Program-made: the position numbers and the translations under genes
Part shown: piece by piece, positions 51,048 through 57,376 of the stretch
Layout of the letters: every line of letters begins with the position of its first letter
Numbering within the stretch: position 1 is the first letter of the stretch
Notes under the pieces: model-generated
Databases searched by the model: none
The model's input: the letters and a program-made list of their open reading frames with translations, nothing else
Told to the model about the DNA's origin: nothing
Source of the DNA: Dehalococcoidales bacterium
Lineage (GTDB): Bacteria; Chloroflexota; Dehalococcoidia; Dehalococcoidales; RBG-16-60-22
Direction: 5' to 3'
Length of the DNA stretch: 64,000 nucleotides
Assembly: GCA_034414775.1 (NCBI GenBank)
Contig: DAOULX010000019.1
Location: 13,891-77,890, forward strand

Positions 51048-53582
51048 TTGAATACTAACAGGTTATCGCCAAGGGTGATTGTCGGTATTCTGCTACTCGT
51101 GTTCTTCGGGGTTTCACTAATTATTCGGATAGTCTTACCTTACGGCCAGGTCTTCGAGGGCCAGATGGTGGTCTACACCAGTGTGGACGGCTACTACTAT
51201 ATGCGCCTGGTCGACAGCATGGTTCACAACTTCCCCCAGTACCTCAGCTTCGATCCCTTCCACATATTCCCGGGTGGTCAGACAATCGAACACCTGGGAT
51301 TCTTTTATCAGGTATTGGCCGGCATCATCTGGCTCTTCGGTCTGGGTAGCCCGAGCCAGAGTTTTATCGATGCTTTCGGCACGCTGTTCCCGCCTATCCT
51401 GGCGGCTTTAACGATTATCCCCGTATATTTCATCGGCAAGACGCTTTTCAACCGATGGGTCGGAGTCATCGCAGCGGTGTTGATGGCGGTTTTCCCGGGG
51501 GAATATCTGGGCCGGAGTCTACTCGGCTTTACCGATACCCCGGTGGTCGAGACTTTCTTCACCGCCACAGCGATGGCTTTCCTGGTTCTGGCAATTAAAT
51601 CGGCCTCGGAAAGGCAGCTGACCGTCAGTCATCTGCTTAAGCTCGAACGGGGTATTTTCCTCCGACCGGTTATTTACAGTCTCCTGGCGGGGGTCTTTCT
51701 GGGCACTTACATGGCCACTTGGAACGGGGGCCTTCTTTTTGTTTTCATCATCACGCTGTACCTGGTGGTTCAGTTCATCATCGACCACTTGAGGGGGCCT
51801 TCCTCCCCTGAAAGGACCGAATACCTGGGTATCGTGGGATTCGTGCTGTTTTTAATTACCGGCATCTTCTTTTTGCCCGTTTCGGAGGAACGATTTATAT
51901 CTGCAGCCGTGGTTATCGCCATAATCATTCCGGTGGCTATGGCGGCGGCTTCCCGCTTCATGTCCAGCCGTGGCCTGAAACCGGCTTATTACCCCCTGGC
52001 CATCCTCGGGCTGGCGGTGGTGATTGGAGGCATCACCTTTGCTATTTCCTCCCGCACCATGGAACTTATGGTCGGGGCCTTCCGTATCTTCGCCCCGGTG
52101 GGTAGCACCGCCGTTACCACGATGGAAATGCAGCCCTTCCTTGCCCCCACGGGTAGCTTCTCAACGGCGGTCGCCTGGGGCAACTTCACCACCAGTTTTT
52201 TCCTCTTCCCCGGCTGGGCGATACCGGGGATCGGGCTGATTGCTTACTTGGTTTTAACTTGGGTAATAACCAAGCAGCCAACGAATAGCCCGCAGCGTCT
52301 GCAGTTACGTGCGGCTAGCGTGGTAATGCTGGCGTTAGGCATTCTGTTACTCCTGATTTACTTTTCCTTGACGTCTTCGGTGGTAATTTTGGTATTCGCG
52401 GCCATTATATTGATACTATTCTTCATTGTTTTCATCTGGCTTTTTAGCAGGCCGGGCAACAACCGAAATGCTATAGTCATCTTCTTCATCTGGACATTGA
52501 TTATTCTTTCGCTGACGCTCGTGCAGCGTCGCTTCGCCTATTATCTGGTGGTGAACATGGCGCTGCTTACGGCCTACCTGTCCTGGGAGATAATCTGGCG
52601 GTTCAGCCTGAAGAAACTGGCGGAAAAGCCGGAAGTGGTGCCTGAGGAGGCCAAATCCAAAAAACGCCGGAGGCGCCGCACCGGTCCCAGCGTGGGTGGT
52701 TATCGCGTTATCACCGGAGCAGTTGCGGTGGTGCTTTTGGTAGTTGTCATACCTTGGAACATAATTAAATCTGTAGAGATAGCCTCGGCACCGGCTTTTC
52801 TGCCCTCGGCGGCCTGGCAGGAGTCACTGACCTGGATGAAAGACAATACCCCGGAGCCTCTCGGGGCTCCTGATGACTATTACCAGCTTTACAAATCAGA
52901 TTTCGAATACCCGGCCTCGGCCTACGGTGTAACATCATGGTGGGACTACGGCTACTGGATAACGCGGATTGGCCATCGGATTCCCAGTGCCAATCCTTCC
53001 CAGGAACCCGATCCGATTTTGAAAGTCGCTTCCCTTTTCCTGTCCCATGATGCTTCCCAGGCCGGGAATATCCTGGGTGAATTGCAGACCAAATATATCG
53101 TCGGGGATCATGCCACCGCTACCAGCAAGTTCTGGGCCATCGTCACCTGGGCCGGCGAGCCACAGGAAAATTACCTACCTGCGTATTTCGTCCAGCAGGG
53201 AGACGCTATCCAGCAGGCGCAAGTCTATACACCGGAGTACTACCAGACGTTATATATCCGGCTCTATAATTTCAACGGTCAAGAGGTAACTAAAGCGAGG
53301 CCGATTGTCGTTGCTTTCACAGAGAGAGAGACGAGCGATGGCGTACCCTACCGCCTGGTTACGGAATCACGGCAGTTTGATAGTTATCCGGCAGCGCTGG
53401 CCTATGTGGAGGAAGCTGGAGCGGAGACCCACGCTGTTGTCGGTAGTAATCCCTTTATAAGCCCGGTGCCACTGGAAGCGGTGCCGGACTTTTCGCTGGT
53501 ATTTGAATCAACGAAAAAAATCAGCGTCCCGGAGGCCGGTTCGAAACCGGAAGTCAAAATCTTTGAATATACCCGGCCTTAG
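51048..53582 (+). CDS. STT3/AglB/PglB-family oligosaccharyltransferase (archaeal-like)
   Basis: 844 aa. A ~13-TM N-terminal domain plus a soluble C-terminal domain. Hallmark motif SWWDYGYWI. First-loop acidic motif VDGYYYMRLVD and second acidic motif GFTDTPVVE. TTG start with AGGAG 7 nt upstream. Confidence 0.85.
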   Translation: MNTNRLSPRVIVGILLLVFFGVSLIIRIVLPYGQVFEGQMVVYTSVDGYYYMRLVDSMVHNFPQYLSFDPFHIFPGGQTIEHLGFFYQVLAGIIWLFGLGSPSQSFIDAFGTLFPPILAALTIIPVYFIGKTLFNRWVGVIAAVLMAVFPGEYLGRSLLGFTDTPVVETFFTATAMAFLVLAIKSASERQLTVSHLLKLERGIFLRPVIYSLLAGVFLGTYMATWNGGLLFVFIITLYLVVQFIIDHLRGPSSPERTEYLGIVGFVLFLITGIFFLPVSEERFISAAVVIAIIIPVAMAAASRFMSSRGLKPAYYPLAILGLAVVIGGITFAISSRTMELMVGAFRIFAPVGSTAVTTMEMQPFLAPTGSFSTAVAWGNFTTSFFLFPGWAIPGIGLIAYLVLTWVITKQPTNSPQRLQLRAASVVMLALGILLLLIYFSLTSSVVILVFAAIILILFFIVFIWLFSRPGNNRNAIVIFFIWTLIILSLTLVQRRFAYYLVVNMALLTAYLSWEIIWRFSLKKLAEKPEVVPEEAKSKKRRRRRTGPSVGGYRVITGAVAVVLLVVVIPWNIIKSVEIASAPAFLPSAAWQESLTWMKDNTPEPLGAPDDYYQLYKSDFEYPASAYGVTSWWDYGYWITRIGHRIPSANPSQEPDPILKVASLFLSHDASQAGNILGELQTKYIVGDHATATSKFWAIVTWAGEPQENYLPAYFVQQGDAIQQAQVYTPEYYQTLYIRLYNFNGQEVTKARPIVVAFTERETSDGVPYRLVTESRQFDSYPAALAYVEEAGAETHAVVGSNPFISPVPLEAVPDFSLVFESTKKISVPEAGSKPEVKIFEYTRP

Positions 53583-53636
53583 TTTCGCCCGGCACCAGTC
53601 TTTTGGCCTTTGGGCCTCTTTAAACGCGGGCAAGCT

Positions 53637-54083
53637 ATGAGCGGCAAGAAGAGGTTGTCCAAGGCTCTTTCTATTATCCTCGGACTTATTATCCTTGGAT
53701 TAGTTGTTGCCGTGGTTATAACGCTTGTTTTTCCAGCGGCGGAGGAGGCCTACACCGAGTTCTATATCCTCGGCCCCGGCGGGAAAGCGGTCGGCTATCC
53801 TTTGGAGTTTACCGCCGGCGATGAGCAATCGGTAATCATCAGTATCGTCAGCCACGAACGTGATAGAAATACCTTCCGGGTCGATGTCGAAGCCGGCGGG
53901 ACGATTCTCGCGGCAGCCGGCCCGATTGTGCTGGACCCTCTTGAAAAATATGAAGAACCCATCGTCTTCACGGTAAATCCGGCCGGCAGCCAGCAGCAGG
54001 TGACATTCCTCCTCTACAAGGACGGGGAGGCGGGGGCCTACCGTTCCCTGCACCTTTGGGTAGACGTGTCCCCGCCGCCCTAG
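53637..54083 (+). CDS. Single-pass membrane protein with a DUF1616-like extracytoplasmic domain
   Basis: N-terminal TM helix, then YTEFYILGPGGKAVGYPLEF..SVIISIVSHERD..FRVDV, which resembles the archaeal DUF1616 pattern as I remember it. The start (ATG 53637 versus TTG 53610) is uncertain. Confidence 0.55.
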   Translation: MSGKKRLSKALSIILGLIILGLVVAVVITLVFPAAEEAYTEFYILGPGGKAVGYPLEFTAGDEQSVIISIVSHERDRNTFRVDVEAGGTILAAAGPIVLDPLEKYEEPIVFTVNPAGSQQQVTFLLYKDGEAGAYRSLHLWVDVSPPP

Positions 54084-54415
54084 ATACTGACCACCTCGGC
54101 CATTAGCATCGTTTCGATTGTCTTTCCCATGGTGGTGGGCTTGCCTGCTTCCAGCTTATTCAGGAGGTCGAAATATTCGAGGCAGGTCGTGCAGGCCAGT
54201 AACTCGACTCCCTGCTCGGCGAGTTGTTTAATGTGGGTCAGGAAGATGGAGCCCTGGCAAACCAAACGCACACCAGAGTTCAGGAATATCATGGCGGCCG
54301 GCTTTTCCGGGCTGTCCGCGAGTAACCGTAGAAAGCTGGACATAAGTAATCGTCCCAGTTGGTCGTCGCCGCGGCCAATGACATCGGATTTGATGATGAA
54401 TGTTTTCCTGGACAT
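54080..54415 (-). CDS. DsrE/DsrF-like (YedF C-terminal-like) sulfur-carrier family protein
   Basis: 111 aa. FIIKSD..GRGDD.LG and a CTTCLEYF block. AAGGAG lies 8 nt upstream. Confidence 0.55.
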   Translation of the reverse strand: MSRKTFIIKSDVIGRGDDQLGRLLMSSFLRLLADSPEKPAAMIFLNSGVRLVCQGSIFLTHIKQLAEQGVELLACTTCLEYFDLLNKLEAGKPTTMGKTIETMLMAEVVSI

Positions 54416-54431
54416 TTCAAAAGCTCCTTAT

Positions 54432-54472
54432 AAAAATAAAAAAGACGATAGCCGGAGCGGCTCCGAACCATC
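54432..54472 (-). terminator. Intrinsic terminator/attenuator between the leader RNA and the DsrE-like gene
   Basis: The minus strand reads GATGGTTCGGAGCCGCTCCGGCTATC (stem), then GTCTTTTTTATTTTTAT. It ends ~15 nt before the RBS. Confidence 0.5.
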
Positions 54473-54517
54473 ACGCCGGGTTCACGTACATATAGACGTC
54501 AGGTAGTATTTTCCCCC

Positions 54518-54636
54518 GGGAGGGTAATGAAGCGGAGGCTCGAACAGTTGACCGGTGCAAAACTTGCACCGAGCCGGTAGGCTCAGACTCAGCCTAAAGT
54601 AAATGACGTGCGGTAGGTCACCGCACTCACCCCCTC
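54518..54636 (-). ncRNA. Candidate structured cis-regulatory RNA (riboswitch-like leader), class unknown
   Basis: A closing helix GAGGGGGT/ACCCTCC encloses three or four hairpins: GTGCGGT/ACCGCAC (54608-54626), AGGCT/AGCCT (54579-54595), GGTGCAA/TTGCACC (54554-54570), and GGCTC/GAGCC. Confidence 0.4.
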
Positions 54637-54658
54637 TTAATGAAGTAGTTTCAGACCG

Positions 54659-54688
54659 ATTATATCAATCGGATGAGATAGAGTTCAA
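54659..54688 (-). promoter_or_regulatory. Sigma70-like promoter driving the structured leader
   Basis: On the minus strand: TTGAAC (54688-54683), 18-nt spacer, perfect TATAAT (54664-54659). Confidence 0.5.
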
Positions 54689-54694
54689 TGTTTA

Positions 54695-54817
54695 CTATGG
54701 TTGTTTGGGTTCCGTGAGGTAGCCGGCTTCCACCCAGGCGTTAAAACCATCCTTAAGGGGATACACGTCCGTAAAACCGTTATCGAGGAGCATCTGCGCC
54801 GCACGGTATAGAACGGT
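54695..54817 (-). pseudogene. C-terminal remnant of a rhodanese-domain gene
   Basis: The frame reads TVLYRAAQMLLDNGFTDVYPLKDGFNAWVEAGYLTEPKQP and then a stop, which is a rhodanese C-terminal pattern. It is preceded by in-frame TGA codons, and there is no active-site Cys loop and no start codon. Confidence 0.5.
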
Positions 54818-54830
54818 TCATAATGACAAC

Positions 54831-55535
54831 TCAAATCCGTCCCGGTTGTTTCAAATATTTCTTCGTCCAGGGGCAGGCGGCGATGCACATCCCGCATATA
54901 TTATTGTGGACCCCTTCTCTGGTCATTTCAAATTCCTGGGCGGTCCGGCGGCAGGCAAAAGCATCGTACAAAGACTGGCGCGGCATACCCGGCTGCCAGT
55001 TCAGACCGACTATGGCATGACCGGGGCAGATATCGACACAGTCGGTACACTCTCCACATCGGGAGGTCTTTACCGGTTCCCCGGCTTGAAAAGAGGCATC
55101 AGTTAACACGGTAGTGAATCGGACTGCCGGACCGTACTCTTGGGTAATGAGCAGGGCGCACTTGCCGATCCATCCCAGACCGGAGCGAGCGGCTACCGTC
55201 TTGTGAGGGAGTATCGTTGAGAGGGTATCCCAGTCGATGCCGGCATTCGTGGCGGCAATGAACCGGGCCCGGTGCCCCTTCTCCTGGAGAAGTCTGGCGG
55301 CATAACTGCCAAGGTTGTCCAGCTGGCTATTGGCCCGGCGGTATTCATCGTAATACCGCCGGTTTGGGCCGTCTTTAATACCGGCAATAATATCCGGGTC
55401 CAGAGCCACGGCAATGGAAATTCCGAACGGGAAGCCGTCGCGCGCTTTTGGATCTATTTCGTGTAAATCGCCAAACCCGATAAGGCTGGCTCCCTGGGAT
55501 TTCAGGGAATCGGTCACTTCTTCATTCAGAGTCAT
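54831..55535 (-). CDS. QueG-like (epoxyqueuosine reductase-related) 2x[4Fe-4S] protein, short form
   Basis: GLGWIGKCALLITQEYG block. CGECTDCVDICP and CGMCIAACP cluster motifs. Confidence 0.7.
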   Translation of the reverse strand: MTLNEEVTDSLKSQGASLIGFGDLHEIDPKARDGFPFGISIAVALDPDIIAGIKDGPNRRYYDEYRRANSQLDNLGSYAARLLQEKGHRARFIAATNAGIDWDTLSTILPHKTVAARSGLGWIGKCALLITQEYGPAVRFTTVLTDASFQAGEPVKTSRCGECTDCVDICPGHAIVGLNWQPGMPRQSLYDAFACRRTAQEFEMTREGVHNNICGMCIAACPWTKKYLKQPGRI

Positions 55536-55682: not shown

Positions 55683-57376
55683 ATGACAAACAAGAAAACG
55701 CAGAACCGGCTCGCCCGTGAAAAAAGCCCCTACCTGGCCCAGCACGCCGATAATCCCGTAGACTGGTATCCGTGGGGAGATGAGGCCTTCGAGAAGGCCG
55801 AAAAGGAAGACAAACCGATTTTCCTTTCTATCGGCTATTCAACCTGTCACTGGTGTCACGTGATGGCGCATGAATCGTTCGAGGACGCGCAGGTAGCCGC
55901 CCTGATGAACGACGCCTTTGTTTCTATCAAAGTTGACCGCGAGGAGCGCCCGGACATCGATATGCTCTATATGCTGGTCTGCCAGATGATGACCGGAAGC
56001 GGCGGCGAAATGGCGGCATCTACGACCATATAGGCTTCGGTTTCCATCGCTATGCGACGGACCGGCAGTGGCTCGTTCCGCATTTTGAGAAGATGCTTTA
56101 CGACCAGGCTTTGCTGGCAACGGCCTACCTCGAGGCTTTTCAGGCGACCGGCAAAGAGGAATACGCCCGGATGGCCCGTAAGATTTTCACCTATGTACTT
56201 CGGGACATGACGGACCCGGCCGGCGGTTTCTATTCGGCCGAAGACGCCGATAGCGAAGGGGAAGAGGGGAAGTTCTACTTATGGACATTGGATGAAATCA
56301 GGCAGGTGCTCTCACCCGGTGAGACTGACTTCGCTGCCAAGACTTTCAACATCAGGGAAAGCGGTAACTTCTCCGATGAAGCCACCGGGCGGAAAACCGG
56401 GAGAAATATTCTTCACCTGACCGGACCATTTGTAGAAACCGACTCCCCAAAAGCGCCTGAGTCTGAAATCCACCGGCAACTGGAATCAATACGGGAGAAA
56501 CTATTTGCGTATCGCGAAAAACGCGTTCATCCCCACAAAGACGATAAAATCCTGGCCGATTGGAATGGTCTCATGATCGCCGCCCTGGCCAGGGGGGCAA
56601 GAATCCTGGGGGAACCCGCCTATGCCACCGCCGCCAAACGGGCCGTTGATTTCATACTCGGATACATGCGCGCTCCGGACGGGAGTCTTTATCACCGCTA
56701 CCGCGACGGCGAGGCTGCTGTTCCGGCCCATCTGGATGACTATGCTTTCCTTATTCAAGGAATGCTGGAACTGTATGAAAACACCTTTGAAGTCGATTAT
56801 CTGAAAATGGCGTTGACACTGAACGAATACCTGCTGAAGCACTTCTGGGACGGAGAAAACGGCGGGTTCTATTTTACCTCCGATGATGGTGAGGACCTGC
56901 TTGTCCGCTAGAAGGAGATTTACGACGGCGCTATCCCTTCGGGGAACTCGGTAGCGATGTTGAACCTGCTTCGCCTGGGCCGGATTACTACCGATCCCGG
57001 TCTGGAAGAGAAGGCCGCTGTTATCGGCCGGGCCTTTTTCGAAAGCGTACGGCAATCACCCGGGGCTCATACTCAACTCCTGACGGCAGTAGACTTCGCC
57101 GTGGGGCCATCATATGAAGTCGTCGTCACCGGGCGTACCAAAGCTGACGATACCGAAAAAATGCTGAAGGCCGTGCGTCGAGAATTCGTACCCAATAAGG
57201 TCGTGCTTTTCGTTCCACCACATGGCGAAGTCTCCGGGATTAGAGAAATCGCCCCGTTTATAGCCAGTATGTCACCCGTCGACGACAAAGCTACTGCTTA
57301 CGTATGCGTCAATTATAACTGCAATCTTCCGACCAATGGTGTGGATACCATGCTTTCCATGTTGAAATCCCCTTAA
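55683..57376 (+). pseudogene. Disrupted thioredoxin-domain/DUF255 (YyaL, SPATA20-like) gene
   Basis: Three collinear pieces. 55683-56033 ends in a frameshift just after MTGSGG. Homology resumes at [33 protein letters not shown] in another frame, with roughly 120-130 aa of the family architecture missing. An in-frame TAG sits at 56909-56911 within LLVR*KEIYDGAIPSGNS. Confidence 0.75.

What the first reader, a model, noticed from the sequence alone, without database searches (positions are those of the whole stretch)
54416..54694. Promoter, ~120-nt multi-hairpin leader and terminator upstream of a DsrE-like gene: unclassified riboswitch or attenuator candidate
The elements are all on the minus strand. 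A strong promoter (TTGAAC-18-TATAAT, 54688-54659) comes first. It is followed by a closed multi-helix structure spanning 54636-54518. In this structure the helix GAGGGGGT/ACCCTCC encloses the hairpins GTGCGGT-GACCT-ACCGCAC, AGGCT-GAGTCTG-AGCCT and GGTGCAA-GTT-TTGCACC, nested in GGCTC/GAGCC. Next comes a hairpin plus a T6-A-T5 run (54472-54432), and then AAGGAG and the ATG of the DsrE/YedF-like gene. This is the canonical layout of a transcription-attenuating riboswitch. I could not match the core to the TPP, SAM, Moco, cobalamin, ZTP, guanidine or fluoride consensus sequences that I remember. A segment TTCGAGCC in the aptamer resembles the 5' half of the terminator (TTCGGAGCC), which hints at mutually exclusive pairings.
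Basis: partly seen in the sequence, partly recalled or inferred. Interest (0 to 1): 0.6.

Follow-up and report, generated by a model that had tools for sequence, protein, structure and literature searches.

The report
Selenocysteine-sensing leader peptide attenuator
The supposed riboswitch is most likely a short translated leader gene with two selenocysteine (UGA) codons, a selenocysteine-insertion hairpin and a terminator, which would let the cell tune selenium-handling genes to its selenocysteine supply, a control device I could not find described anywhere.

Summary
The "multi-helix aptamer", however, is not conserved.

About 80 homologous leaders from Dehalococcoidia/Chloroflexota share these parts:
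- a perfect Shine-Dalgarno sequence and a start codon;
- 7-13 variable codons;
- an invariant in-frame UGA, usually UGA-NNN-UGA;
- a covarying hairpin whose loop matches the E. coli fdnG/fdhF SECIS, with its G-U at the canonical distance from the second UGA;
- an open frame for about 30 more codons to a position-conserved stop (TAG, TAA or TGA);
- an intrinsic terminator, then yedF, or double-cubane reductase-activase-yedF, or permease-yedF.

Indels inside the ORF are multiples of three; after it they are not. Selenocysteine (Sec) decoding is supported by tRNA-Sec genes on two leader-bearing contigs, and by a known selenoprotein rhodanese beside the leader in the window's closest relatives.

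Best reading: a ribosome-mediated attenuator that senses Sec-tRNA(Sec). The antiterminator pairing and the sign (Sec scarcity gives read-through) are inferred, not shown. No Rfam, Pfam or NCBIfam family matched, and I found no paper describing such a device. Confidence is about 0.7.

The parts
54659..54688 (-). Sigma-70-type promoter TTGAAC (54688-54683), 18-nt spacer, TG-extended TATAAT (54664-54659)
   Evidence: 10/12 match, TG before the -10. Similar TGnTAnAnT boxes lie upstream of several homologous leaders.
54627..54637 (-). Shine-Dalgarno sequence of the leader ORF (AGAGGGGGTGA; homologues have AAGGAGGTGA), 8 nt before the start codon
   Evidence: columns 12-21 nearly invariant in 59 leaders.
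54499..54621 (-). Leader ORF: GTG 54621-54619 to stop TGA 54501-54499. Product MTYRTSFTLG-U-V-U-AYRLGASFAPVNCSSLRFITLPGENTT (40 residues if both UGAs are read as Sec).
   Evidence: the frame is conserved, the stop position is conserved with changing stop codon, and indels are multiples of three.
54589..54591 (-). First in-frame UGA. It is present in every leader, including the sets found without requiring it.
54583..54585 (-). Second in-frame UGA. It is TGA in 48 of 65 distinct leaders; otherwise CGC, AGC, GAC, GGC, CGG, TTT, TGC or TGG.
54552..54572 (-). SECIS-like hairpin UCGGUGCAA-GUU-UUGCACCGG. The invariant loop G-U is at 54563-54562, which is positions 23-24 from the second UGA and 29-30 from the first.
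   Evidence: 92.6% of cells paired, 4 of 9 pairs covary, 0 of 500 shuffles reach the score. The same GCAAGU(C/U)UUGC and the same spacing occur in E. coli fdnG. Clade variants resemble fdhF.
54524..54541 (-). Element 1, inside the leader ORF: GAGCCUCCG (54541-54533) plus UCAUUAC (54530-54524). Proposed 5' strand of the antiterminator.
   Evidence: CCUCCG is invariant even at codon third positions. It pairs with the 5' half of the terminator in the window's minimum-free-energy fold and in truncated-transcript ensembles. Divergent leaders show compensatory versions.
54513..54517 (-). Element 2: an SD-like GGGGG (GGRGG in most homologues) about 12 nt before the leader stop codon. Role unknown.
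   Evidence: It is absent from L158 and L005.
54432..54474 (-). Intrinsic terminator: GAUGGU-U-CGGAG-CCG-CUCCG-GCUAUC (54472-54447), then T6-A-T5 (54443-54432). The nearly invariant CGGAG is at 54465-54461.
   Evidence: (186/216 changes AU<->GC in 25 sequences).
54080..54429 (-). Regulated gene: SD AAGGAG (54429-54424) and a short-form yedF (54415-54080, 111 aa, only the DsrE-like half)

Best explanation
The leader is a ribosome-mediated transcription attenuator whose regulatory codons are selenocysteine codons.

Shown parts. Transcription would start at the 54688-54659 promoter. A ribosome would load on a near-perfect Shine-Dalgarno sequence and translate about 10 codons to UGA-GUC-UGA. A SECIS-type hairpin sits directly downstream. 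The frame then stays open for about 30 more codons and ends at a conserved stop about 30 nt before a terminator hairpin.

Inferred mechanism.
- When Sec-tRNA(Sec)-SelB is scarce, RF2 ends translation at the UGA. The downstream leader stays free of ribosomes. The ORF-internal segment (GAGCCUCCG...UCAUUAC) pairs with the 5' half of the terminator (GUGAUGG..CGGAG) as an antiterminator. RNA polymerase then reads into yedF, or in relatives into double-cubane reductase/activase/yedF or permease/yedF.
- When Sec is plentiful, ribosomes read through the UGAs and run over that segment. The terminator forms and the operon is shut off.

Status of the claims. Shown: the anatomy, its conservation, translation-type constraints, SECIS likeness, and Sec-decoding capacity in related carriers. 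Inferred: the identity of the antiterminator and the sign of regulation.
For: (1) Homologous leaders precede yedF or yedF operons in about 80 Chloroflexota/Dehalococcoidia contigs. They were found in three independent ways: from the protein YedF, from a DNA pattern, and from the permease or nearest YedF relatives.

(2) Coding signature beyond the UGA.
- Frame 0 is free of stops for 30 codons in 58 of 59 sequences. Frames 1 and 2 have stops in 30 and 32 of 59.
- The stop is fixed at +90/+93 but is TAG (43), TAA (11, plus one at +96) or TGA (the window).
- ORF indels are 3 or 6 nt, except in three error-ridden contigs. Indels after the stop have any length.

(3) The peptide itself is weakly constrained: entropy by codon position is 0.78/0.57/0.78. 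The second UGA is replaced by Arg, Ser, Asp, Gly, Phe, Cys or Trp codons. No sense-codon homologue exists among 5.8 billion protein clusters. No Pfam or NCBIfam family matches. This pattern fits a leader, not an enzyme.

(4) SECIS likeness. GCA-R-GU-NN-UGC is invariant and the stem covaries. The 11-mer and the G23-U24 spacing equal those of E. coli fdnG. Clade variants resemble fdhF.

(5) Sec decoding in carriers. tRNA-Sec lies on the leader contigs L143 and L160. The rhodanese_LYCAU (seleno)protein with an in-frame TGA lies immediately upstream of the leader in L151-L155. A SelD-like AIRS gene lies next to L156.

(6) A terminator with a U-run follows at a constant distance (about +150). Only about 30-40 nt then remain before the next start codon, which leaves no room for a promoter.

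(7) Antiterminator.
- CCUCCG (in the ORF) and CGGAG (in the terminator apex) are invariant at the RNA level.
- Before the 3' arm is made, their pairing dominates the predicted ensemble: mean P 0.64, rising to 0.84-0.88 with the SD occupied; 0.91-0.98 in the window.
- Divergent leaders keep the pairing with different sequences: L005 CAAAGAGCC/GGCUCUUUG, L158 UCGAAGAACCUC/GAGGUUCUUCGA, L160 UCGAAAAG(C)CUCCG/CGGAG-CUUUUCGA.
- Masking the segment as a ribosome would restores the terminator in the window. Across the family it lowers antiterminator-type pairing.

(8) The regulated genes are selenium-linked: YedF is TIGR03527, and YedF is associated with dehydratase-like and activase genes in PMC5322559.
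Against: - No experiment shows translation, Sec insertion or conditional termination.
- The window's 64 kb holds no tRNA gene, and I did not find selA/selB there. Sec decoding in this particular genome is inferred from relatives.
- The canonical spacing fits the second UGA, yet the first UGA is the invariant one. In 17 of 65 leaders only the first remains, 6 nt further from the hairpin.
- Column-wise covariation for the antiterminator is not significant within the 59-sequence alignment.
- Duplex energies beat shuffles clearly in only a minority of leaders. The median z is about -1.3, and about 0 for the window and its nearest relatives.
- At equilibrium the terminator wins in all simulated ribosome states.
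- A ribosome parked at the leader stop codon does not cover element 1, so the OFF state needs ribosomes in transit or trailing ribosomes.
- The metagenome set was selected with a pattern that required CTGA and CCTCCG, so invariance at those sites is partly an ascertainment effect.
Confidence: 0.7

Rival explanations
1. Same Sec-dependent attenuator, but with the opposite sign. Read-through of the UGAs when Sec is plentiful parks a ribosome near the leader stop. That frees element 1 from a local partner (element 2 or the SD), the antiterminator forms, and yedF is induced by selenium sufficiency or excess (a detoxification logic).
For: The leader stop codon is 25-35 nt downstream of element 1, so a terminating ribosome covers the SD-like element 2 rather than element 1. 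RNAalifold and partition functions pair element 1 with the leader SD in naked RNA. PMC5322559 discusses a possible detoxification role for YedF.
Against: The predicted element 1:element 2 pairing is negligible (P 0.00-0.08). Element 2 is missing in L158 and L005. L005 has no CCUCC that could pair with its SD, yet it keeps the element 1:terminator complementarity. Sec-tRNA charging should saturate at nutritional sufficiency, which makes it a poor sensor of excess (own reasoning).
Confidence: 0.2
2. The small ORF is an independent, functional 40-residue selenoprotein gene with its own terminator. It is merely encoded next to yedF.
For: There is an in-frame UGA with a SECIS-like hairpin and a conserved open frame. 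Some residues recur (LGASFA, a frequent Cys, NLR).
Against: There are no Cys or other sense-codon homologues. The second Sec is replaced by unrelated residues, not Cys. Codon positions 1 and 3 are equally variable, and the recurring residues coincide with RNA elements that are invariant even at wobble positions. The downstream operon has no room for its own promoter after the terminator. The leader precedes three different gene arrangements.
Confidence: 0.07
3. The first UGA is an ordinary stop codon, giving a 10-residue leader peptide. The downstream hairpin acts as a protein-binding (for example SelB) or ligand-binding RNA sensor that controls the terminator without read-through.
For: In E. 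coli a SECIS-like hairpin in the selAB leader is bound by SelB and regulates expression without Sec insertion (own knowledge; Thanbichler and Boeck 2002). The first UGA lies 6 nt further from the hairpin than the canonical spacing.
Against: This does not explain several observations: the frame stays open for 30 codons after the UGA, the stop position is conserved while the stop codon changes, indels are multiples of three up to that stop and arbitrary after it, and a second in-frame UGA sits at exactly the canonical SECIS distance.
Confidence: 0.08
4. A metabolite-binding riboswitch.
For: The layout is promoter, structured leader, terminator. No known family matches.
Against: The proposed junction helices are not conserved. 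Every conserved block has another explanation: SD, start, UGA, SECIS, anti-SD-like segment, stop, terminator.
Confidence: 0.03

Closest known systems
Leader-peptide (ribosome-mediated) transcription attenuators of amino-acid operons (trpL, hisL, leuL, pheL, thrL, ilvL; own knowledge)
   Same: A short SD-led ORF in the leader. Regulatory codons for the sensed aminoacyl-tRNA, typically in tandem (here UGA-NNN-UGA). An intrinsic terminator before the structural genes. An ORF-internal RNA segment that can pair with the terminator's 5' half.
   Different: [quoted passage not shown] Shortage would lead to release by RF2 rather than to a stalled ribosome. The ORF continues about 30 codons beyond the regulatory codons. 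The regulated genes are selenium-handling genes, not a biosynthetic pathway for the amino acid backbone.
Bacterial SECIS elements of formate dehydrogenase genes (E. coli fdnG, fdhF)
   Same: A hairpin immediately 3' of an in-frame UGA. The apical sequence GCAAGU(C/U)UUGC equals that of fdnG. Variants GGUGCAGGU(C/U)(C/U)UGCACC resemble fdhF GGUUGCAGGUCUGCACC. The loop G-U falls at positions 23-24 from the (second) UGA.
   Different: It sits in a 40-codon leader ORF, not in an enzyme gene. There are two UGAs per hairpin, and the invariant one lies 6 nt further upstream. The bulged U of the E. coli elements is absent. SelB binding is untested.
SECIS-like operator in the E. coli selAB leader (Thanbichler and Boeck 2002; own knowledge)
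   Same: A SECIS-type hairpin in a 5' leader, used to couple gene expression to the state of the Sec-decoding machinery.
   Different: That element has no decoded in-frame UGA and acts on translation initiation of selA. Here the hairpin follows in-frame UGAs inside a translated ORF, and an intrinsic terminator lies between it and the regulated gene.
Translation-coupled transcription of fdhF(Sec) in Treponema primitia (PMC3892789)
   Same: Selenium supply changes transcription downstream of a UGA/SECIS through translation.
   Different: There the effect is polarity inside the selenoprotein gene itself: selenium increases downstream transcript. Here a dedicated leader ORF with its own stop and terminator would control other genes, probably with the opposite sign.
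RF2 (prfB) autoregulatory frameshift site (own knowledge)
   Same: A regulatory device that measures how efficiently an in-frame UGA is decoded or terminated, with an SD-like element nearby.
   Different: There is no slippery sequence and no frameshift. The competitor of RF2 would be SelB-Sec-tRNA. The output would be transcription termination.

Membership tests
Leader-peptide transcription attenuator | Short ORF with its own SD and start codon in the 5' leader | tested here: met
   SD AGAGGGGGTGA plus GTG 54621; conserved in all leaders.
Leader-peptide transcription attenuator | Regulatory codons for the sensed aminoacyl-tRNA inside the ORF, often tandem | tested here: met
   The first UGA is invariant, and UGA-NNN-UGA occurs in 48 of 65 leaders.
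Leader-peptide transcription attenuator | Intrinsic terminator between the leader ORF and the structural genes, with no intervening promoter | tested here: met
   Only about 30-40 nt lie between the U-run and the next start codon.
Leader-peptide transcription attenuator | Antiterminator that is mutually exclusive with the terminator and overlaps translated RNA | tested here: inconclusive
   For: ensemble prediction, the window's minimum-free-energy fold, and compensatory versions in L005, L158 and L160. Against: no column covariation in A2 and weak shuffle statistics for many leaders, including the window.
Leader-peptide transcription attenuator | Read-through depends on supply of the sensed aminoacyl-tRNA | not testable with these tools
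   Needs Term-seq or reporter assays with and without selenium.
Bacterial SECIS element | In-frame UGA followed by a continuing reading frame | tested here: met
Bacterial SECIS element | Hairpin at a fixed short distance 3' of the UGA, with a conserved loop G-U | tested here: met
   The spacing is canonical for the second UGA and +6 nt for the first.
Bacterial SECIS element | Host encodes tRNA-Sec, SelA, SelB and SelD | tested here: inconclusive
   tRNA-Sec lies on leader contigs L143 and L160. A selenoprotein rhodanese lies next to the leader in L151-L155. A SelD-like gene lies near L156. Nothing was found in the window's 64 kb; the rest of that genome was not available.
Bacterial SECIS element | Binding by SelB and Sec insertion | not testable with these tools
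   A biochemical assay is needed.
Any Rfam family (riboswitches, leaders, SECIS models) | Covariance-model score at or above threshold | tested here: not met
   No hit at gathering score in the window or in 8 related loci apart from tRNA-Sec. Nothing relevant at E<=10 in 54350-54760.
Metabolite riboswitch | Conserved multi-helix aptamer supported by covariation and independent of translation | tested here: not met
The conserved blocks map to ORF features.
Functional selenoprotein family | Sec aligned with Cys in homologues, and purifying selection on the protein | tested here: not met
   No homologues with sense codons. The second Sec is replaced by R, S, D, G, F, C or W. Codon-position entropy is 0.78/0.57/0.78.
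selAB-type SECIS-like translational operator | SECIS-like hairpin without a decoded UGA, overlapping or adjacent to the RBS of the regulated gene | tested here: not met
   In-frame UGAs are present. The hairpin is about 140 nt upstream of the yedF RBS, with a terminator in between.

The most novel reading that the evidence does not exclude
This is the first example of transcription attenuation driven by selenocysteine decoding. A leader peptide with tandem UGA codons and a formate-dehydrogenase-like SECIS reports the cell's Sec-tRNA(Sec)/SelB status. It thereby defines a selenium regulon in Dehalococcoidia: YedF, an ATP-dependent double-cubane-cluster reductase with its activase, and an ArsP-type permease. 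That points to those unstudied proteins as a selenium acquisition or activation pathway.
Probability: 0.55. Interest if true: 0.85.

Novelty: new variant of a known kind. Interest (0 to 1): 0.8.

Why it matters
How bacteria sense selenium status is largely unknown. PMC5322559 states that the regulatory network is not understood.

A Sec-codon leader attenuator would be a direct, protein-free read-out of Sec-tRNA availability. It would extend the classical attenuation principle to a recoded stop codon.

It would also give a practical marker for finding selenium-responsive genes in uncultured anaerobes. It links YedF, a double-cubane-cluster reductase/activase pair and an ArsP-type permease into one co-regulated selenium module, which gives testable functional hypotheses for all of them.

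For annotation: such leaders are invisible to gene callers because of the in-frame UGA, and to Rfam because no model exists.

Tried and rejected
- Rfam at gathering score and at E<=10: nothing relevant.
- Leader peptides against Pfam and NCBIfam, and a peptide profile against 5.8 billion proteins: no hits.
- Element 1:element 2 local hairpin as an anti-antiterminator: negligible predicted probability.
- Equilibrium folding of full-length leaders with ribosome masks: the terminator always wins, so this is uninformative.
- Column covariation for the antiterminator in the 59-sequence alignment: not significant.
- Cognate versus non-cognate duplex test: not discriminating, -18.5 against -17.8 kcal/mol.
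- Duplex-versus-shuffle tests: significant only for a minority of leaders.
- tRNA search in the window: none found.
- Five literature searches for a Sec leader or attenuator: no description found.
- L148 (TauE/YedF locus): no leader.
- The genetic-code explanation (UGA as a sense codon) is rejected, because the window's own leader ORF ends in TGA.

Full report
**1. Observation**

- The promoter is TTGAAC(54688-54683)-18-TATAAT(54664-54659), preceded by TG.
- The three small hairpins are present.
- There is a hairpin plus a T6-A-T5 run.
- AAGGAG and ATG 54415 begin a 111-aa ORF.

That ORF is the short form of the 'sulfurtransferase-like selenium metabolism protein YedF'. It scores 116.7 bits against TIGR03527 (cut-off 110) and covers only the C-terminal DsrE-like half. 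Its relatives are annotated in Chloroflexota/Dehalococcoidia.

The source record is contig CAYMSP010000002.1 of MAG GCA_964393175.1.

Rfam gives nothing, either at gathering score for the whole window or at E<=10 for 54350-54760.

The 245-nt leader folds only slightly better than shuffles (z = -2.2).

**2. Homologues change the picture**

I collected homologous leaders in three independent ways.
- Eighty yedF loci from GTDB genomes include 16 with a leader homologous to the window's. It lies either directly upstream of yedF or 1.5-2.2 kb upstream, at the head of an operon.
- A pattern scan of metagenomes added 62 more.
- The window's nearest YedF relatives and a set of permease loci added still more divergent versions.

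In all of them the order of parts is the same (alignments A2 and A4):
1. a near-perfect SD (AAGGAGGUGA);
2. ATG, GTG or TTG after 8 nt;
3. 7-13 variable codons;
4. an invariant UGA, usually as UGA-NNN-UGA (48 of 65 distinct leaders);
5. a hairpin with the invariant apex GCA-R-GU-NN-UGC;
6. an invariant CCUCCG;
7. usually a GGRGG;
8. a stop codon;
9. a terminator hairpin whose apex carries a nearly invariant CGGAG;
10. a U-run about 150 nt after the UGA;
11. about 30-40 nt later, the SD and start of the next gene.

**3. The RNA after the UGA behaves like coding sequence**

- In 59 distinct leaders, the frame set by the start codon and the UGA has no stop between +9 and +90 in 58 of them. The exception is a contig with obvious indel errors. 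Frames +1 and +2 carry stops in 30 and 32 sequences, at 11 and 16 different places.
- The frame then ends at +90 or +93 in 55 of 59. The stop codon there is TAG (43), TAA (11, plus one at +96) or, in the window, TGA. So the position is conserved, not the letters.
- All indels between start and stop are 3 or 6 nt, except in three error-ridden contigs whose downstream genes are also frameshifted. Indels after the stop have every length.
- The peptide itself is not conserved like a protein. Entropy by codon position is 0.78/0.57/0.78. The invariant stretches (GCAAGU, CCUCCG) are invariant even at wobble positions.
- The second UGA is replaced by CGC, AGC, GAC, GGC, CGG, TTT, TGC or TGG.
- No Pfam or NCBIfam family matches. 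No predicted protein among 5.8 billion clusters resembles the peptide with sense codons in place of the UGAs.

Translation appears to be selected for. The product does not.

**4. The hairpin looks like a SECIS**

- In 42 diverse leaders the 9-bp stem is paired in 92.6% of cells. Four pairs covary, no shuffle of 500 reaches the covariation score, and slid controls collapse.
- The loop G-U is invariant.
- I fetched the E. coli elements for comparison. In fdnG the sequence reads UGA CAC GGA CCA ACG GUA GCAAGUCUUGC UCC. This is the same 11-mer as in the leaders (GCAAGU[U/C]UUGC). Its G-U sits at positions 23-24 from the UGA, exactly where it falls when counted from the leaders' second UGA (54585-54583 in the window).
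- The window's nearest relatives and several permease-linked leaders have GGYGCAGGU(C/U)(C/U)UGCRCC. This resembles fdhF GGUUGCAGGUCUGCACC.
- A difficulty remains. The invariant first UGA lies 6 nt further from the hairpin, and in 17 of 65 leaders it is the only UGA.

**5. Sec decoding in the carriers**

- tRNA-Sec genes lie on two leader-bearing contigs: L143 by ARAGORN, and L160 by Rfam at 71.6 bits, immediately after the leader-controlled permease.
- In the window's closest relatives (L151-L155), the gene just upstream of the leader is a rhodanese with an in-frame TGA at the active-site position. It matches NCBIfam 'rhodanese-related (seleno)protein' at 117.7 bits (cut-off 115).
- A SelD-like AIRS gene neighbours L156.
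- The window itself has no tRNA gene in its 64 kb. For this genome, Sec decoding is therefore inferred.

**6. What is regulated**

The leader precedes four arrangements:
- yedF alone (the window and many others);
- a double-cubane-cluster anaerobic reductase (NF040772, 513 bits), plus an acyl-CoA-dehydratase-type activase, plus yedF;
- the reductase plus yedF (L151-L155);
- an ArsP_1-family permease plus yedF or tRNA-Sec.

Lin et al. (PMC5322559) had already linked YedF by gene neighbourhood to a dehydratase subunit and an activase.

The window seems to have lost the reductase gene that its relatives carry between leader and yedF. One MAG carries three leader-headed loci (L029, L046, L056).

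**7. Mechanism**

Shown:
- a promoter;
- a translated-looking leader ORF with Sec codons and a SECIS;
- a conserved terminator directly before genes that have no room for a promoter of their own.

Inferred, evidence for the antiterminator:
- The ORF-internal segment around CCUCCG is complementary to the 5' half or apex of the terminator.
- In transcripts truncated before the terminator's 3' arm, this pairing dominates the predicted ensemble. Mean P is 0.64, rising to 0.84-0.88 when the leader SD is occupied, and 0.91-0.98 in the window.
- In the window the minimum-free-energy fold contains a composite helix: GAGC:GCUC + CUCCG:CGGAG + UCAUUAC:GUGAUGG (54541-54524 with 54474-54455). Masking 54555-54525, as a ribosome would, restores the terminator.
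- Divergent leaders keep the complementarity with other sequences. L005 has CAAAGAGCC/GGCUCUUUG and no CCUCC at all. L158 has UCGAAGAACCUC/GAGGUUCUUCGA. L160 has UCGAAAAG(C)CUCCG/CGGAG-CUUUUCGA, with two compensatory changes relative to L158.

Inferred, evidence against the antiterminator:
- There is no column-wise covariation inside the 59-sequence alignment, because the core is invariant.
- Shuffle tests are weak for many leaders, including the window.
- At equilibrium the terminator always wins.
- A ribosome scan lowers antiterminator-type pairing only from about 0.65 to about 0.4 when the ribosome sits on element 1.

My preferred reading follows the logic of amino-acid operons.
- Sec scarce: the ribosome is released at the UGA, the downstream leader is naked, the antiterminator forms, and read-through follows.
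- Sec ample: ribosomes traverse element 1, the terminator forms, and the genes are off.

The opposite sign is not excluded. A ribosome at the leader stop does not cover element 1, and the SD-like element 2 near the stop has no assigned role.

**8. Comparison and novelty**

- It works like a trp-type attenuator and contains a SECIS like those of fdnG and fdhF.
- It differs from the E. coli selAB SECIS-like operator, which has no decoded UGA and acts on translation (own knowledge).
- It differs from the polarity effect inside fdhF(Sec) of Treponema primitia (PMC3892789).
- Five full-text searches found no description of a Sec-codon leader peptide or attenuator. Rfam has no model for it.
- I therefore class it as a new variant of a known kind of device.
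- Confidence is about 0.7 that it is a Sec-decoding-dependent attenuator. Given that, confidence in the sign is about 0.6-0.65.

Noticed in passing
window 54695-54820 (-); L151 936-1270, L155 1086-1427: In the window's nearest relatives the gene just upstream of the leader is a rhodanese with an in-frame TGA (…TYCT-U-HHEASSARAAQ…). It matches NCBIfam rhodanese_LYCAU '(seleno)protein' (117.7 bits, cut-off 115). The window keeps only the C-terminal remnant, from the TGA (54820-54818) to the TAG (54697-54695), with the N-terminal two thirds missing. It is probably a pseudogene fragment.
   Followed up: partly
window 54416-54431 versus L151 1585-2872, L155 1712-2997: Relatives carry a 381-424-aa double-cubane/HGD-D-type reductase gene between the leader and yedF. 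The window goes from the leader terminator straight into yedF, so the reductase gene appears to have been deleted. L001 shows a different deletion, which fused the first 12 codons of the reductase to yedF (MMDNRQMWRDLG-KTFVIQSD…).
   Followed up: partly
window 55683-57376 (+): A YyaL-like thioredoxin-domain gene is broken into three ORFs. There is a deletion or frameshift after …MTGSGG near 56010-56030, and an in-frame TAG at 56909-56911 (…LLVR*KEIYDGAIPSGNS…). This is either a pseudogene or assembly error.
   Followed up: partly
window 51048-54083 (+): An archaeal-type oligosaccharyltransferase (STT3/AglB core, 844 aa) and a DUF1616 membrane protein lie convergent to yedF in a Chloroflexota genome. 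The same synteny is seen in L151-L155.
   Followed up: no
L029, L046, L056 (contigs of one MAG, MFD01231.bin.2.26): Three separate leader-headed reductase-activase-yedF loci occur in a single MAG, each with a somewhat different leader peptide. One of them (L056) has TGG in place of the second UGA.
   Followed up: no
L160 3076-3168; L143 6770-6864; L050, L065, L067, L072: tRNA-Sec genes lie within a few kb of yedF in several phyla. In L160 the tRNA-Sec gene comes directly after the leader-controlled permease, so it might itself be under leader control.
   Followed up: partly
L165/L166 about 900-1130: A more distant leader upstream of a DsrE-like gene plus permease has the same SD, …FT-UGA-GUU-UGA, but a different GC-rich hairpin (CACGUGGG-GUGU-CCCGUG) placed closer to the UGAs. 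I saw no obvious U-run terminator. It may be a second structural class.
   Followed up: no
A2 columns 134-138 (window 54517-54513): An SD-like GGRGG sits 9 nt upstream of the last sense codon of the leader ORF, the same geometry as an initiation complex. In one subgroup it forms an 8-bp helix (CAGGAGGC/GCCUCCUG) with a segment just before the terminator. Its role is unexplained.
   Followed up: partly
window 54831-55535 (-): A 234-aa protein with a 4Fe-4S double-cluster domain (weak QueG / reductive-dehalogenase similarity) occupies the place where relatives have a PIG-L family gene. This indicates a local rearrangement next to the rhodanese remnant.
   Followed up: no
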